Part shown: piece after piece, positions 17,472 through 60,152 of the stretch | How the letters are laid out: every line of letters starts with the position of its first letter | How positions within the stretch are numbered: position 1 is the stretch's first letter | Assembly: GCA_964016885.1 (NCBI GenBank) | Contig: OZ024742.1 | Location: 355,446,001 to 355,510,000 of the forward strand | DNA from: Eledone cirrhosa | Lineage: Eukaryota | Direction of reading: 5' to 3' | Length of the DNA: 64,000 nucleotides | Position numbers and translations under genes: made by a program | Notes under the pieces: model-generated | The model's input: only the letters and a program-made list of their open reading frames with translations | What the model was told of the DNA's origin: nothing | The model's database searches: none

Positions 17472-17874
17472 GAATAAGGAAAAGCGAAGTAGTTTCAGAT
17501 GTTCAAGTCCTTTAATAATAATGATGTGATATATATTTCAATGACGACACTGGCCACACTGTTCTGTGTGCGAGTGTCGTGTCATCATCAGACAGCTTGT
17601 TACATGGAATTGGTACTCACAGGAATTGGTACTCACAGGAATTGTTACTCACAAGGGAACGGATGAAAAACTCAAAAGCACGAACTTCATCCGTTCCCAT
17701 ATCGATTCAGTTTGGATTGCCTCGGAAACATAACCTTATTATGTAACAAGCTGTCTGATTATGACACGACACTCGCACACAGAACAGTGTGGCCAGTGTC
17801 GTCACTGAAATATATATCACAGCATTATTATTAAAGGACTTGAACATCTGAAACTACTTCGCTTTTCCTTATTC
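17472..17874. repeat. Fold-back with an HHR in each arm (17523-17596 minus; 17750-17823 plus)
   Basis: GCUGU-CUGAUGA-long stem II-GAAA-UAUAUA-UC-ACAGC (consensus of both arms); spacer has three 17-bp repeats. Confidence 0.85.
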
Positions 17875-18164
17875 GATATTTACTCCGTCACTCCTATGTG
17901 GAAAAAGTACGTTGAGTGCTTGAATTGAATTGCATGAATATTTACCCTAATATATATATATATATATATATATATATATATATATATATATATATATATA
18001 TATATATATATATATATAACATATATATATATATACATATATATATATATATATATATATATATATATATATATATATATATATATATATATATATACAT
18101 ATATATATATATATATATATATATATAATATGAGATCAAAAGATGGTTAAAGGAGTTCCATGTA

Positions 18165-18231
18165 TTTTATTATGCGCATTTCACAAACAAACATCATCAT
18201 GCAATAATATTTGTGTTTTCATCAGATAAAA
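18165..18231 (-). ncRNA. Type I hammerhead inside a short fold-back (~40-bp inverted ends, 18130-18350)
   Basis: UUUUAU-CUGAUGA-stem II-GAAA-UGCGCA-UA-AUAAAA. Confidence 0.75.
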
Positions 18232-20155
18232 CAGGAGAACATGATATGAAGGCTAAAAAACACTTGTGGATAGTGTAGTTTTAAATCAACATATGAAAAG
18301 TGGTTTTAGATAAAATACATGGAACTCCTTTAACCATCTTTTGATCTTATATTATATATACTCCAGTCCTACAAACTGTAGAGTGCTTCTTATCCGATAT
18401 CTGCATTGCTTTATTGTACTACAATAAAACTCACCTCCTACATATATATATATATATATATATATATATATATATGTATATATATATGTATATATATATA
18501 TATATGTATATATATATATATATATGTATGTAAATATATATATATATATATATATATATATATATATATATATATATATATATATATATATATATATATA
18601 TATATATATATATATATATATATGTATGTTATTACTTGATATCATCATAATCGTTTAACGTCTAGCGTGGAAGATAGACGTTAACCGATGATGATGATGA
18701 TATATAGTAAGATATATATATATATATATATATATATATATATATATATATATATATATATATATATATTGTAATATATATATATAATGACATCTAAAAT
18801 ATTTTTGACATGACAATTAAAAATGTATCAATATATGTATTGTTGTGAGAGTCTGCATGTTGCCACACTACAGTCGATATTGCTTTTTCGTTTGTACGTA
18901 TATTCTCTAACGTTGATCAATTTGATTTGTAGAGAAATGGTGTCATGGTCTCGTACGAAACATCGCCCACGTGACTTGTTAAACGTCAACCTACATACTC
19001 GTCTACCATCTCTCACTTCTACTTATACATAACATTTATACATCAAATATCTGACATCGCATACGCATTAATCCACGAAATATCTCACTAAAATTCTAAT
19101 CGCTTTGCATTTCTAACATTTCCTTTCAATATTTGAAACAAAAATACCACACTAACATGATGCAGATGCCAATATAAGGAATGCAAATATGTAGTAAAGG
19201 TTATTAAGGCAGTTGGATGTTCGTCAGAAAACCACTTATGCACATAAGCACTATTTTTTCAATAATGTTTCTCGCGAAACTGTTCCAAATGTCTGGAATA
19301 ATTGAATTAGAATCTAAAGTGAAATGCCAAGAAAACTGTTTGTCTTATATATTATCTCCGGTCACATTTTATATCCTTAATCTGGCAAACATGCCAGCAA
19401 CCTATCAGAGGAGAAAAAAGAAAGATTCTAAAACTCTATTTTTACGTACAATTCTTCTTCTTCTTCTTCTTCTTCTTACATTTGTTAAACTTCATCCCAC
19501 CACTCTTTACCTTCTAAACCCTTTCACAGATAGGCTAAAGGACCAATATAAATGCTTTTTTCCGTGTTTTTAGTTAAGGTGCTTCACCCTTTGACTGGGA
19601 ATTGTGTCGAGGTAGACTTTCCATCCTGCAATTAATATAACAAATGACATTAGAATGTCCATGTTTATAAAATATTTGTATTTCTTTTTTTAAATACATG
19701 TACAAAACGCTGTTTTATTATTTTGATTATGTCTTTAATTTTCTTAAATAGTTATGACTCATTACAGTATAATGTTTGAACTAGTTTCGTTAAATTATAT
19801 ATTTCGATTATATCTTCCAGTTCGTTTCCTGTGAAATAGTGGTCGTTAAAATTGTAAAATGTTTTATTGTGTTAAATCATTCAATTTGATTTCCGCCCTT
19901 TTCCCCTATATATATTAAAAGTGCAACACACGAAACTGTTTTTGTTTAGAGATAATATTGTTTAGTTATTCGATGTCTTTCCATATTTATGTTAAAGTGA
20001 AATAATTGTTCTGAGCAAAACTTAATATTATACTTAAGCGTTAATATACTGAGGCGTGGATAACTTTCGGATGAGACGGTCACTTCGCAGTCCTGTGTTT
20101 CACATTAGATTACAGTATACGGTACAACATTGCTGCCTTCATATCGTTATTTAGA

Positions 20156-20339
20156 GGCGGTGGATTGGCAGTATCGGTAGAGGGTCGGACGCCATGCTTT
20201 CCAGCATAGTTACGTCCCTTTACGATCTGAGTTCAAATCCCGCCGAGGTTGACGTTGCCTTTCATCCTTAAGGGGTCGATAAAATAAAGTACCATTAATG
20301 CACTGGGTAATCGCTGGCCTTGTGCCTAAAGTAGAAACA
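20156..20339 (+). mobile_element. Full-length tRNA-derived SINE with 10-bp TSD
   Basis: Same family as 13868; TSD GTTATTTAGA at 20146-20155 and 20340-20349. Confidence 0.85.
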
Positions 20340-21959
20340 GTTATTTAGATGCATGCATGCGACGAGAAGCTGCAATATAATTGTTAATTGGTAAGCGGGT
20401 GTGCACTGACTTTGGGCAATTTTCCTTATTTATTGTGTTTCAGCATGACTGATTGAACTTCGTACACATTTGCTGCTCACTGCTTCCGCGCGTAAGATGA
20501 GTTGGTTTCAGACATCTCGTTGTTAGGTATCTCTTCTACCTGAAAACTCAGATACTTGTAGACTTTAGCAAGAATGCCTGGAATTGAAATGGATAACCTA
20601 CAAAGCTTTATGGGAAATATAACTTTTGCGTGAAACTTTACTTGCTCTCTCGAATAAGAATGTTGGATAAGGTTATAAGGATGGTAAGCAATAGCTTGTA
20701 GTTTAATTACTTTGGTGGTGAAAGCCATATAATAGTTAATATTTCTGTGTGATGTGTGTGTTGTGTGTGATATGTGTGATATGTGTGATATGTGTGATGT
20801 GTGTGATGTGTGTGATATGTGTGGAAGTTTTGTTCTGGATCAGTTTCGAAGAAGGCAAATGAGCGATAAATAAAATGTGTGAGGAAAGTGTACAAGATAA
20901 AGATGTTTTTGTCATTTGAAACGCCTCACATTAACATTCCACTAAATATGTTTGCTATAAATAACCAACATTTAAAAGAATCTACAAGAGCCATGTAGCA
21001 CACCTATAACCAATGTAGCACACCTACTAGTTAACATCATGAATATAGACGTCAATAACAAAAGACATATTTATAAGTTAATTTTACTTGTATTGTTTTC
21101 TTTTCTGAAAGATGTAATATTTACACTTGCATGTGTACTGAGCGCTCATTCAGTTAATATTTCAATACTTCCGTGTATTATAATACATACAACACTCTCT
21201 TCGAGGTATTTGTAAGCATTATCTGGTGTCCTTCACCCTAGGACCACACCCCTTCCCACCATTATCGGCACAGAGTTGGCTACCCGCAGGTGTGACCCAC
21301 ACGAACTGGAATGGATCTTCTAACACGTCACTTTCACCATCCTCCGAGGAAACACCTTCTCTATTCTGACCGACGGGGCCACGGGGTGGCCAGCGCGTGA
21401 GCCCCCATTTGCAGTAATACTGAGAGATGGGGAGAGTGAGAGAGACGTGGGCAGTGACTATACCAGCATTGCTGGAATATTTTGTAGAGTCAAAGGTTAC
21501 GTAAATAGGTTTATAGTCATATATACTGTGTTATAGCTTGATCATAACAACCAAAAACGACTATTTTTCCAGAATTTCAAATTAACCTTAAAAGCGTTGA
21601 AGAATGATTTTATTTTCATAGAATTTCAATCATATTTAAATCTACAGTTTTTACCACATTCATCCTCTTCGGTGCAATTTCACGCGTCACATTAAATAGA
21701 GGTTTTGTCGTTGTCACATCGAAATATCAAACACCATACGTTAATTTATAGGTTTACAGGGCCAGAGATATGATGATGTGAATGTAACAACAACGGAGAG
21801 AGGAATCAGATATCCATACGTCTAACACGAAAGTGCAATATTTGACAATTTTGTTTTACGTGTCATTATATCGTCAGAGAATACTAAAACAGAGACAGTA
21901 GTGGTTATAAACACATTCCTTTGGAATAAACAGAATTACATAAACTCCAGTATTAGTAA

Positions 21960-58821: not shown

Positions 58822-59230
58822 TCTAAGGCGGGTAAAATTCCCGATATCCATGGATGAGTTCTCTCCAGCGGTCTCTGTCCCTCATTATCGCTGCCCTATC
58901 CTGCATCTCCAACAGACCAGTGTCTGTCCTTAGGGCATCAACATATGTTAACCTTGGTCTTCCTCTTCTAGTTTGTCCATGTAGGGGCTCCCAAAGGAGC
59001 ACTGAGTGCAATGTCAACTCTGGATGTCGGTGAGCATGTCCAGCCAACCTCAGTCTCCTCTGTGTCACTTTTGAGCTGACTTTTGGGATGCTCCCATACA
59101 GCTCTTAGTTTTTCAACCTCAGTGTATACTGATTAATGTTCAGAGCCATCCTCAGCATTCTCGTGTAGCACCCATCCACCATCTGAGTGAGTCTCTTGGT
59201 CAGTGTCCAAGTCTCAGACCCATACAGACC
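58822..59230 (-). mobile_element. RTE-like LINE 3' fragment
   Basis: [27 protein letters not shown]. Confidence 0.8.
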
Positions 59231-59543
59231 CATACAGACCATATATATATATATATATATATATATATATATATATATATATATATATATATGTATATAT
59301 ATATATGTGTTTGTGTGTGTATATATGTGTGTGTGGGTGTGTGTTTGCGTGTGTGTGTGTGTAATGTCTGTGTATATTACAACCTAGGGCATATTTCCAG
59401 CGTTATTCTACCAAATTCCAAAATATTGCAATGCTTTCACAGCAATATTCGCCACCTTTACAATTGTATCATGTTGTCATAATCTATTATTCATATATTG
59501 TAGCTACTTTGAAAATTGCAAACTTGATTGTCATCACACATTA

Positions 59544-59582
59544 TGAACCTGAAGATTGCGAAAGCATGAAAGTACTTGTTCA
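59544..59582 (+). ncRNA. Minimal type I hammerhead (39 nt)
   Basis: UGAAC-CUGAAGA-UUGC GAAA GCAU-GAAA-GUAC-UU-GUUCA. Confidence 0.8.
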
Positions 59583-60071
59583 ATTAACATTTAACATTTA
59601 ATATTCTACCATACTATTTCATTCTAATACCATTATAAATTTTAAAGGATTGTAAATAAAACGAGTAAATCAGATAAGTTGGAATTCCTTTTATTAATAT
59701 AATCTTCTATACACAATCATACACACCCGTGTATATTTATATATATATATATATATATATATATAGTGAACAGTTGCAACACATATATATATATATGTAT
59801 AAGTGAACAGTTGCAACACATATATGTATCCTTCATTTAATTTAATTTTATTTTATGTATGTGATAACCTCTATATTTAATAATCTCCCTATCGGTTGAG
59901 ATTAAATTTGGCGATATATGGCTGCGCTTTCTAGCAGCATGCCTACCCGCCGTAAGCGACCAATCACACGCTTTCTCTCTGGCAGGTACACAGCTACATA
60001 GCGATCTTAGCCATGTTTGAATCTAAATTTGGCGGGGTCGGTCTGAGAAATTAAATGTCTATTTCTGAGTT

Positions 60072-60152
60072 TATCTCCTGATGATAACCTGACTCAGGGC
60101 AACTCCATATTATTTGGATGCCCTAAACAAGGAAGAAACCATGGTAGAGATA
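60072..60152 (+). ncRNA. Type I hammerhead with extended stem II
   Basis: UAUCUC-CUGAUGA-..AGGGCA..UCCA/UGGA UGCCCU..-GAAA-CCAUGG-UA-GAGAUA. Confidence 0.8.

What the first reader, a model, noticed from the sequence alone, without database searches (positions are those of the whole stretch)
17523..60152. Family-specific palindromic 'barcodes' in hammerhead stem III: possible RNA-dimer signal explaining the two-armed insertions
Seen: between GAAA and the cleavage UH, different families carry different perfect palindromes: UAUAUA (17750), UGCGCA (18165), CUAG (25132), CGAUCG (28480), GUAC (59544), UGAUCA (36356), CUAAUUAG (41199), CAGCUG (47464), CCAUGG (60072). Related elements B and C changed the sequence but kept it palindromic. 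Known: minimal type I HHRs of PLEs cleave as dimers through a palindromic loop 3. Inference: the palindrome could act as a self-recognition dimerisation code, analogous to a retroviral dimer-initiation signal. It would deliver two same-family RNAs to the two ends of one break, which would explain why both arms always match. Counter-examples: elements A and D have non-palindromic loop 3 yet also fold back.
Basis: partly seen in the sequence, partly recalled or inferred. Interest (0 to 1): 0.75.

Follow-up and report, generated by a model that had tools for sequence, protein, structure and literature searches.

The report
Self-pairing loops of Penelope hammerheads
The palindromes are real: they are the self-pairing loops of small hammerhead ribozyme motifs carried by Penelope-like jumping genes, a known design that likely lets two copies pair in order to cut, and they likely do not explain why these insertions have two matching arms.

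Summary
All 9 palindromes are at the stated places, and 6 lie in motifs that pass a hammerhead descriptor with no palindrome rule. Chance gives at least 6 of 8 with P about 1.5e-6.

The motifs sit 36-56 nt from the 3' ends of Penelope-like retroelements. Self-pairing is selected at the RNA level. In a 7,663-copy superfamily, 98 of the first 100 listed loops pair with themselves through Watson-Crick or G.U pairs, and none is an A.C intermediate. This design, the double hammerhead of Penelope-like elements, is in print (PMC4209133).

The "barcode explains the two arms" reading is not supported:
- Family A has a hairpin helix III, yet 17 of 30 sampled arms fold back. Palindromic family C gives 22 of 30 (Fisher p 0.28).
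- The same palindromes recur in unrelated hammerhead families.
- Arms match 15 of 15 times among subfamilies whose loops could cross-pair.
- Some junctions are perfect palindromes with no spacer.
- In print, Penelope-like elements without hammerheads also form inverted insertions, and one element's protein cuts and extends both strands.

A weak trend towards more fold-backs in palindromic families remains (p 0.053). It is confounded by element length. The scan reached a Penelope-like reading before on other pieces of this genome.

The parts
978..5772 (.). Family A head-to-head fold-back. Arms are 978-2803 (-) and 3936-5772 (+), 96.5% alike. Hammerhead-like motifs lie at 1002-1052 (-) and 5698-5748 (+), with core CAGAAGA and a hairpin helix III (AGCA/UGCU).
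122..904 (.). Zero-spacer palindrome centred at 504/505, related (73-79%) to the sequence downstream of the CCAUGG hammerhead at 60164-60578.
17472..17874 (.). Family E17 fold-back. Arms are 17472-17605 and 17741-17874 (97.8% alike), with 135 nt between them. Hammerhead-like motifs with loop UAUAUA lie at 17523-17596 (-) and 17750-17823 (+).
18163..18233 (-). Solo minimal hammerhead E18: CUGAUGA core, 8-bp stem I, loop UGCGCA. It abuts an (AT)n tract.
25132..25172 (-). Degenerate hammerhead-like remnant with CUAG (GGAAC instead of GAAA-A), inside an old fold-back at 24945-25894 whose arms are 81-84% alike.
28429..31847 (.). Family B fold-back ends. The hammerhead at 28480-28526 (-) has core CCGAUAA and loop CGAUCG. 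The decayed partner at 31750-31796 (+) has loop CGAUUG. The terminal arms are 84% alike.
34332..34832 (.). Family G symmetric fold-back with its junction near 34570. Hammerheads with loop GUAC lie at 34495-34533 (-) and 34607-34645 (+); the + copy has a mutated core.
35555..35619 (-). K35 hammerhead: CUGAUGA core, 8-bp stem I, loop UAUGUA, which pairs with itself through two G.U pairs.
36360..36409 (-). Hammerhead-like motif with loop UGAUCA and a weak stem I.
39628..42032 (.). Family T555: 555-nt tandem units in two inverted arrays. Hammerheads with loop CUAAUUAG lie at 39712-39783, 40267-40338 and 40820-40891 (-), and at 41204-41275 and 41759-41830 (+).
43630..47553 (.). Family C head-to-head insertion. 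The repeat arms 43630-44855 and 46328-47553 are 99.9% alike. The - copy runs on to about 46327 and carries ORF 45142-46497 (-). Hammerheads with core CCGAAGA and loop CAGCUG lie at 43677-43715 (-) and 47468-47506 (+), 47 nt from the outer ends.
53875..58592 (.). Family D head-to-head insertion. Arms are 53875-55186 (-) and 57235-58592 (+), 93% alike. [quoted passage not shown] Hammerheads with loop CCUCUGG lie at 53901-53978 (-) and 58489-58566 (+).
59506..59765 (+). Solo family G copy; hammerhead at 59544-59582 with loop GUAC.
60072..60152 (+). H60 hammerhead: CUGAUGA core, long stem II, loop CCAUGG.

Best explanation
The palindromes are the self-complementary loop 3 of minimal type-I hammerhead motifs near the 3' ends of Penelope-like retroelements. 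They are predicted to let two motif copies pair into one double hammerhead, and the two-armed insertions are likely made in one integration event from one template rather than through a loop-3 pairing code.

Shown here:
- The motifs have the hammerhead core, with stems I and II that covary.
- Helix III is reduced to the A15.1-U16.1 pair around a 4-8 nt loop that can pair only with a second copy.
- Successful lineages keep that self-pairing through G.U intermediates.
- Head-to-head arms with 3' ends outward occur in all five sampled families, with or without a palindromic loop.

Inferred from the literature:
- In a transcript that holds two copies (repeat-body-repeat, or tandem units such as the 555-nt array), the two loops pair, build a full helix III, and both sites are cut.
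- Any self-complementary sequence serves, so the loop drifts and differs among families.

Inferred for the arms:
- Either the cDNA turns back on itself (zero-spacer junctions), or both cut DNA strands prime reverse transcription in one complex (unequal arms).
- In both cases the arms match because they share one source.
For: Motif reality: 243 descriptor hits against 2 in shuffled sequence. In 23 distinct K35-like sequences, 95.7% of cells pair, 13 of 21 pairs have changes on both sides, and 0 of 500 shuffles reach the observed values.

Selection on self-pairing: the pattern for the B/C hammerhead has 7,663 genome matches, and the reversed control has 0. Hand count of the first 100 listed:
- CAAUUG 44
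- CAGCUG 21
- CAGUUG 15
- CGAUUG 15
- UGAUUG 2
- CGAUCG 1
- two others
- the A.C intermediates CAAUCG and CAACUG, 0
These A.C forms have no predicted homodimer stability (+0.3 and -1.0 kcal/mol).

Placement: hammerheads lie 36-56 nt from the insertion ends. Most insertions abut (TA)n or (GA)n tracts.

Fold-backs per sampled 3' arm, within 7 kb:
- C 22/30
- A 17/30
- D 9/30
Within 1.5 kb only:
- G 17/30
- E17 20/30

Geometry: adjacent head-to-head hammerhead pairs are the same family in 18 of 22 cases. Tail-to-tail pairs are the same family in 0 of 16.

Junctions: L004 is a perfect palindrome (60/60 bases match, no gap). Window 237-772 matches 56/60.

Literature (passages read):
- PMC4209133: palindromic helix III and loop 3, dimers, and tandem need.
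- PMC8557442: an inverted 5'-truncated copy, a 30-40 bp tail and microsatellite bias, also in elements without hammerheads.
- PMC11167929: both strands are cut and extended, a protein dimer is predicted, and cleavage is not needed in vitro.
- PMC3846280: self-priming proposed from palindromic junctions.
Against: - No Rfam hammerhead model matches, even at E <= 10 on short stretches.
- The high-copy families B/C and A carry C or A at core position 4, so cleavage is unproven.
- No RNA data could be used.
- Palindromic families tend to fold back more: family percentages 0, 33, 40, 57, 63, 67 against 0, 0, 6, 24, 31 (Mann-Whitney p 0.053). D is lower than C (p 0.0017). A contribution of RNA pairing is therefore not excluded.
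- Hairpin or odd loops (A, D) could still swap into dimers in silico, so they are not clean negatives.
- Pfam gave no hit for the D-family ORF.
Confidence: 0.75

Rival explanations
1. Loop-3 palindromes act as family-specific dimerisation codes that hold two same-family RNAs together. The two ends of one break are then each primed on one RNA, which would give two matching arms.
For: - Homodimers of A+loop+U are predicted at -2.2 to -11.2 kcal/mol, and most cross pairs are weak.
- The pairing site lies 36-56 nt from where the copies end.
- The family-level trend goes the predicted way: G 17/30, E17 20/30 and C 22/30 against A 17/30 and D 9/30 (p 0.053).
- An Anolis element extends both strands in vitro (PMC11167929, passages).
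Against: - A (hairpin helix III) does not differ from C (p 0.28). GGTCACA (loop GAAC/GGAC) gives 4/13, against B/C 16/49.
- UAUAUA, CAAUUG, CUAAUUAG and CCAUGG each occur in hammerheads with unrelated stems.
- CAGUUG self-pairs at -3.4 kcal/mol but pairs with CAGCUG at -8.7 and with CAAUUG at -6.4. Even so, 15 of 15 pairs are homotypic, 3 of them CAGUUG.
- Cross-talk is predicted for B-K36 (-5.6), H60-D (-5.8) and E17-K35 (-3.2).
- Zero-spacer junctions need no second RNA.
- Naiad/Chlamys elements lack canonical hammerheads but have the same inverted insertions (PMC8557442).
- All nine loops being distinct is expected by chance (P 0.74).
Confidence: 0.1
2. The palindromes are a DNA-level or mutational by-product with no RNA role. 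They could be sites for the element's endonuclease or another DNA-binding protein, or symmetric CpG decay (CG..CG to CA..TG) that keeps palindromy by itself.
For: CGATCG to CAATTG is exactly the double CpG-decay product. The elements insert at AT-rich repeats.
Against: - Strand asymmetry: the intermediates seen are those that pair as RNA on the sense strand (CGAUUG 15, CAGUUG 15). The equally likely DNA-level intermediates CAATCG and CAACTG are 0 of 100.
- CAAUUG to CAGCUG is not CpG decay.
- The loops sit at the exact helix III position of a covarying hammerhead fold.
Confidence: 0.05
3. The fold-backs are assembly artefacts. Palindromic contigs could come from long-read chimeras, so there would be no two-armed insertion to explain.
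For: - Perfect palindromes with 100% identical arms.
- PMC8557442 notes that such structures trouble assemblies.
Against: - Arms range from 73% to 100% identity and so have aged in place.
- The same geometry recurs at tens of loci in five families on many contigs.
- The structure is described in many animals (PMC8557442, PMC3846280).
Confidence: 0.03

Closest known systems
Minimal hammerheads in the terminal repeats of metazoan Penelope-like elements (Cervera and de la Pena 2014, PMC4209133, passages read; Lunse, Weinberg and Breaker 2016, title only, as cited in PMC6765202)
   Same: - Type I order, long stem II with an unpaired base at its 5' end, and a short stem I.
- Helix III of one pair around a small palindromic loop.
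- Many variable families per genome with compensatory changes.
- Some pairs lie on opposite strands, 100-700 bp apart.
   Different: - Loops here reach 6-8 nt.
- Large families carry C or A at core position 4.
- Some families (A, the TAGTC family) have a stable hairpin helix III in the same genome.
- No activity data exist for these copies.
Double-hammerhead self-cleavage of avocado sunblotch viroid and newt satellite 2 transcripts (Forster et al. 1988, as cited in PMC4209133 and PMC6466107)
   Same: An unstable helix III is completed by pairing of two copies, so cutting needs two motifs.
   Different: There the copies lie in multimeric replication intermediates or satellite transcripts. Here they lie in retrotransposon terminal repeats.
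Complex tandem/inverted insertions of Penelope-like elements (PMC8557442, PMC3846280, passages read) and both-strand cleavage and extension by the Anolis Poseidon element (PMC11167929, passages read)
   Same: - An inverted 5'-truncated copy lies head-to-head with a longer copy.
- A 30-40 bp tail is present.
- Insertions favour microsatellites.
- Some junctions are palindromic.
   Different: None that I could show. The window's elements fit this description.
Retroviral dimer initiation site, a kissing loop with a 6-nt palindrome (recalled from general knowledge, not from a call)
   Same: A short self-complementary loop could link two copies of a retroelement RNA. Loop sequence variants can bias partner choice.
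   Different: - The palindrome here is not displayed on a stable stem; the closing helix is one A-U pair.
- It lies near the 3' end inside a ribozyme core.
- Packaging and template choice are not shown.
L1 twin priming (recalled from general knowledge, not from a call)
   Same: Both DNA ends of one target prime reverse transcription, which gives an inverted segment.
   Different: In L1 the inverted part comes from an internal region of one RNA. Here both arms start at the element's 3' end.

Membership tests
Hammerhead ribozyme, type I, minimal form of Penelope-like elements | Conserved core CUGANGA ... GAAA ... UH in type I order (stem I open) | tested here: met
   Canonical in T555, H60, E18, G, K35 and D. 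Variant in B/C (CCGAAGA, CCGAUAA), A (CAGAAGA) and E17 (two extra bases). U4C is a described natural variant with lowered activity (PMC3088659, discussion passage).
Hammerhead ribozyme, type I, minimal form of Penelope-like elements | Stems I and II kept by compensatory change | tested here: met
   Alignment A2 holds 23 distinct K35-like sequences, chosen by their loop. 95.7% of cells pair, 13 of 21 pairs have changes on both sides, 0 of 500 shuffles reach this, and slid controls give 33-56% paired.
Hammerhead ribozyme, type I, minimal form of Penelope-like elements | Helix III reduced to A15.1-U16.1 around a small self-complementary loop | tested here: met
   Six families in the window have perfect palindromes and K35 pairs with G.U. 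In the genome sample the loops are listed. A, D, TAGTC, GGTCACA and GTCC families do not meet this.
Hammerhead ribozyme, type I, minimal form of Penelope-like elements | Match to Rfam hammerhead covariance models | tested here: not met
   No hammerhead family at gathering score, among the best 150 at E <= 10 (89 lower rows not seen), or on short stretches around D, G and H60. PMC4209133 found these motifs with a relaxed descriptor, so this is a limit of the models rather than a defining trait.
Hammerhead ribozyme, type I, minimal form of Penelope-like elements | Self-cleavage, as dimers | not testable with these tools
   No RNA run was listed. Co-folding predicts loop-3 pairs between two copies, but it also predicts dimers for hairpin families.
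Endonuclease-bearing Penelope-like elements | [quoted passage not shown] | tested here: inconclusive
   - P0001 and 21 relatives conserve CRLINPAK, GLYRDDGL, C.C....CP....C and Y...Y.G.....FK.R...H.
- P0002 has a weak GIY-YIG hit, E 0.016, below the cut-off.
- Pfam gave nothing for P0001, and the Protein Data Bank gave nothing.
- Atlas neighbours carry HTH_animal, DUF8422, GIY-YIG and RVT_1.
Endonuclease-bearing Penelope-like elements | Direct terminal repeats from partial tandem insertion | tested here: met
   Two direct pairs of family C 3' ends lie 4.2 kb apart. The 555-nt tandem units are in the window.
Endonuclease-bearing Penelope-like elements | Inverted 5'-truncated copy joined head-to-head | tested here: met
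   Window families A, B, C, D, E17, G and T555. The geometry is always - copy left, + copy right, except at two complex A loci.
Endonuclease-bearing Penelope-like elements | Short tail beyond the repeat, and insertion at microsatellites | tested here: met
   36-56 nt lie between the predicted cleavage site and the insertion end. (TA)n, (GA)n or similar tracts lie on a flank of most of the 8 insertions shown.
Dimer initiation signal of the retroviral kind | Palindromic loop shown on a stable stem, with partner choice set by the loop sequence | tested here: not met
   The closing helix is one A-U pair. The same loops occur in unrelated families. Cross pairs are predicted as strong as or stronger than self pairs for CAGUUG, K35 and D.
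Dimer initiation signal of the retroviral kind | Two RNAs used together in one replication or integration event | not testable with these tools
   Arm-to-arm distances against other copies were uninformative for G and E17. They were suggestive of a shared source for 4 of 8 A pairs.

The most novel reading that the evidence does not exclude
Loop-3 self-pairing in Penelope-like hammerhead motifs has a second job. It ties two template RNAs together close to the site where reverse transcription starts. A dimeric integration complex then primes on both cut strands, which raises the share of two-armed insertions in families with strong palindromes.
Probability: 0.1. Interest if true: 0.65.

Novelty: new member of a known kind. 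Interest (0 to 1): 0.3.

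Why it matters
How Penelope-like elements transpose is still poorly understood, and the origin of their inverted insertions is an open point in print (PMC8557442).

This window and its genome give a compact natural experiment. Many co-resident hammerhead families exist, some with palindromic and some with hairpin helix III, and all form head-to-head insertions. 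That argues that the arms come from the integration machinery and not from RNA pairing.

The series CGAUCG, CGAUUG, CAAUUG, CAGUUG, CAGCUG in a 7,663-copy superfamily is a clean case of compensatory change through G.U steps in a site that can only pair between two copies.

If the weak trend were real, it would link a ribozyme motif to template choice. That would be new.

Tried and rejected
- Rfam at gathering and at E <= 10: only microRNA-like hits on simple repeats, no hammerhead.
- First strict scan with perfect stem II: no hits, because stem II has an unpaired base. Relaxed.
- Pfam on 14 ORFs, on P0001-P0003 at E <= 10, and on 22 relatives: almost nothing. Protein Data Bank profile search: 0. 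The protein search gave 697 relatives, none with an informative name (the few named rows read 'hypothetical protein').
- Counting fold-backs from the hit tables alone failed for large families. Only 40 of about 1,000 candidates are scored, so upstream stretches were fetched instead.
- Arm-to-arm distance against other copies, to tell one source from one family: biased by how copies were sampled, and uninformative for G and E17.
- Co-folding of whole motifs: it predicts dimers for hairpin families too, so it does not discriminate.
- Clustering stem II by single linkage lumped unrelated families and was dropped.
- Target-site duplications could not be read at the repeat-rich flanks.
- RNA runs: no RNA holder listed, so no reads were laid.
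- Lunse et al. 2016 is not held.
- Earlier notes by place: none.
- Searches for the barcode idea in print (with passages) found no such proposal. bioRxiv supplements and unheld papers were not seen.

Full report
WHAT IS THERE

The window is G000:C3:355446001-355510000 of a 3.0-Gb genome. It is AT-rich and full of (TA)n, (CA)n and (GA)n tracts.

Rfam finds no hammerhead at gathering score or among the best 150 rows at E <= 10. I therefore wrote a descriptor with these parts: C[U/C]GAN[G/A]A, a foldable stem II, GAAA, a loop of 2-12 nt, U plus a non-G base, and at least 4 bp of stem I. It has no palindrome rule. It gives 19 rows:
- five copies of a CUAAUUAG motif
- two of CAGCUG
- one each of CGAUCG, GUAC, CCAUGG and UGCGCA
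- one with CCUCUGG (family D)
- one with UAUGUA, which pairs with itself through G.U
- five rows at two sites with poor stem II, which I take as chance

At least six perfect palindromes among eight good families has P <= 1.5e-6.

WHAT THE ELEMENTS ARE

A self-comparison shows head-to-head inverted repeats, always with the minus copy on the left and the plus copy on the right, so the 3' ends point outward:
- A: 978-2803 / 3936-5772
- E17: 17472-17605 / 17741-17874
- B: 28429-28561 / 31715-31847
- G: 34332-34832
- T555 arrays: 39628-42032
- C: 43630-44855 / 46328-47553, 99.9% alike
- D: 53875-55186 / 57235-58592

The hammerheads lie 36-56 nt inside the outer ends. Most insertions abut a microsatellite.

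The D copy carries a 619-codon frame. Its relatives (697 at E <= 1e-5, about 700 aa) conserve CRLINPAK, GLYRDDGL, a C.C....CP....C motif and a C-terminal Y...Y.G.....FK.R...H motif. I read this as a reverse transcriptase followed by a GIY-YIG-like nuclease. Pfam gave no hit for it. The C-family frame has a weak GIY-YIG hit (E 0.016). Atlas neighbours carry HTH_animal, DUF8422, GIY-YIG and RVT_1.

These features are the following:
- terminal repeats
- an inverted 5'-truncated copy
- a tail
- insertion at microsatellites
- a hammerhead in the repeat
Together they are the published description of endonuclease-bearing Penelope-like elements (PMC8557442 and PMC3846280, passages). Earlier notes of this scan on two other pieces of this genome reached the same family.

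IS LOOP 3 SELECTED TO PAIR WITH ITSELF?

Yes. The pattern CCAAACNNNNGTTTGGANGAAANNNNNNT, taken from the B/C stem II, has 7,663 matches in the genome, and the reversed control has 0. In the first 100 listed, which are ordered by position, I counted by hand:
- CAATTG 44
- CAGCTG 21
- CAGTTG 15
- CGATTG 15
- TGATTG 2
- CGATCG 1
- CGTTTG 1
- CGATTA 1

So 66 are perfect palindromes and 32 more pair with themselves through G.U. The series CGAUCG, CGAUUG, CAAUUG, CAGUUG, CAGCUG is connected by single steps that never lose pairing. The alternative intermediates CAAUCG and CAACUG would give A.C mismatches and have no predicted homodimer stability (+0.3 and -1.0 kcal/mol). They are 0 of 100.

CpG decay alone would turn CGATCG into CAATTG. 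It would pass through CAATCG as often as through CGATTG, and it cannot give CAGCTG. These counts are copies, not independent events. What they show is which states the amplifying lineages had.

The fold around the loop is real. In 23 distinct K35-like sequences, chosen by their UAURUA loop, 95.7% of cells in stems I and II pair, 13 of 21 pairs show changes on both sides, and 0 of 500 shuffles reach this.

A 4-8 nt palindrome closed by one A-U pair cannot fold on itself, so it must pair with a second copy. This is the known double hammerhead (PMC4209133, PMC6765202 and PMC6466107, passages).

ARE THE PALINDROMES FAMILY-SPECIFIC CODES?

No.
- That the nine loops all differ is expected by chance (P 0.74).
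- In 925,060 nt of window plus fetched loci, the descriptor finds 243 hits against 2 in shuffled sequence, 209 after removing duplicates.
- The same loop then occurs with unrelated stems. UAUAUA occurs in four stem II types. CAAUUG occurs in B/C and in two other types. CUAAUUAG and CCAUGG each occur in two.
- Predicted duplexes are mostly specific, but not always: B with K36 -5.6, H60 with D -5.8, E17 with K35 -3.2 kcal/mol.
- CAGUUG pairs with itself at -3.4 kcal/mol, but with CAGCUG at -8.7 and with CAAUUG at -6.4.

DO THE PALINDROMES EXPLAIN THE TWO ARMS?

I sampled 30 genomic 3' ends per family and looked for an inverted partner 3' end upstream.

Within 7 kb:
- C (CAGCUG): 22 of 30, or 20 of 28 without the window's own pair. 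Four arms were seen only to 1.5 kb.
- A (hairpin helix III): 17 of 30, or 16 of 29.
- D (CCUCUGG): 9 of 30, or 8 of 29.

Within 1.5 kb only:
- G (GUAC): 17 of 30.
- E17 (UAUAUA): 20 of 30.

C against A gives p 0.28. C against D gives p 0.0017.

Among incidental hits with at least 1 kb of upstream sequence, partners within 1 kb were as follows:
- B/C 16/49
- K35-like 6/15
- T555 5/8
- A 8/34
- GGTCACA (loop GAAC or GGAC) 4/13
- D 2/36
- 0 of 4-5 for three small families

Families without a self-complementary loop therefore fold back, and A does so about as often as C.

However, the highest values belong to short non-autonomous elements, whose partners are easiest to see. The windows also differ (1 kb and 1.5 kb).

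Three further points bear on the arms:
- In the first 100 B/C matches there are 15 adjacent minus/plus pairs. All 15 have the same loop variant in both arms (chance 0.28 per pair). Three of them are CAGUUG pairs, whose loops should prefer other subfamilies. The matching is thus tighter than loop pairing could make it. Subfamilies active at different times would give the same result.
- Adjacent hammerheads head-to-head are the same family in 18 of 22 pairs. Tail-to-tail they are the same family in 0 of 16. Head-to-head pairs are therefore single events.
- Junctions are of two kinds. Some are palindromes with no or a tiny spacer: family C locus L004 matches 60 of 60 bases with no gap, window 237-772 matches 56 of 60, and 16 of 17 G loci are symmetric at one fixed element position. 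Others have unequal arms: 11 of 12 E17 loci, 5 of 7 A loci, and the window's A, C and D.

Truncation of two independent copies at the same base is unlikely. In the first kind, one arm is therefore likely copied from the other, as proposed from palindromic junctions in PMC3846280. The second kind fits priming on both cut strands, which the Anolis element does in vitro without needing hammerhead cleavage (PMC11167929). I see both kinds.

Naiad and Chlamys elements lack canonical hammerheads but form the same tandem/inverted insertions (PMC8557442, abstract and passages).

VERDICT

The part of the interpretation that says loop 3 is an RNA pairing signal is right and already in print. The part that makes it a family code explaining the two arms is not needed, and several tests speak against it. 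A modest contribution is not excluded.

I found no paper proposing the barcode idea (searches; passages). Lunse et al. 2016 and bioRxiv supplements could not be read.

LIMITS

- Cleavage and dimer formation were not tested.
- No RNA holder was listed.
- The loop counts are hand counts of 100 of 7,663 matches.
- Samples of 30 arms per family are the best-scoring copies and are not independent. Both arms of one event can be in a sample.
- A and D could still form swapped dimers in silico.

Noticed in passing
window 43677-43715, 47468-47506, 28484-28522, 5698-5748; loci L204-L233: High-copy, recently active families carry a non-U base at hammerhead core position 4. Of 34 C-type rows, 29 read CCGAAGA, 5 read CCGAACA (one local cluster) and none reads CUGAAGA. 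Family A reads CAGAAGA. Family C copies are 100% identical over 154 nt in all 40 scored hits. U4C is described as lowering activity in vitro but tolerated in a viroid (PMC3088659, passage).
   Followed up: partly
window 45142-46497 (-) and 28479-29600 (+): The frames of families C and B hold long asparagine- and serine-rich low-complexity stretches upstream of the zinc-finger-like and GIY-YIG-like part. This resembles the N-rich inserts reported in rotifer Penelope coding sequences (PMC3846280, passage).
   Followed up: no
loci L004, L206, L225, L042, L047, L051, L063, L011, L020, L026, L030, L170, L198, L202, L130; window 41759-43715: 3' ends of different hammerhead families lie tail-to-tail 150-600 nt apart far more often than expected (16 pairs, none of the same family). 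They usually lie across a microsatellite, which suggests shared insertion hot spots.
   Followed up: partly
loci L202 (917-985, 1547-1615), L199 (5349-5417), L231 (2718-2786): A hammerhead family with a canonical core and a stable 6-7 bp hairpin helix III (UAGUC...GACUA). It is a monomer-type ribozyme living beside the dimer-type families in the same genome.
   Followed up: no
window 16552-16649 (-): A GC-rich perfect hairpin scores 56 bits against the mir-3136 model (gathering score 86). The flanking 16583-16821 is a dispersed repeat also found at 26491-26640, 38908-39076, 50110-50271 and 58594-58793. It is probably a small inverted-repeat element and not a microRNA.
   Followed up: no
window 32730-33173 (+): An ORF fragment with weak RVT_1 (E 4e-6, below the cut-off) and PHD-finger hits. 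This is a different retroelement remnant between the B arms.
   Followed up: no
window 10000-12059: A (GA)n tract of 650 nt with strong GC and AT skew, and overlapping long frames on the minus strand without Pfam hits. These are likely repeat-driven open frames.
   Followed up: no
loci L063 (1892-1926 -, 2883-2917 +), L173, L178: The GGTCACA hammerhead family has loop GAAC or GGAC. In a dimer these would give tandem A.A or G.A mismatches flanked by G-C pairs. The family still forms head-to-head pairs.
   Followed up: partly
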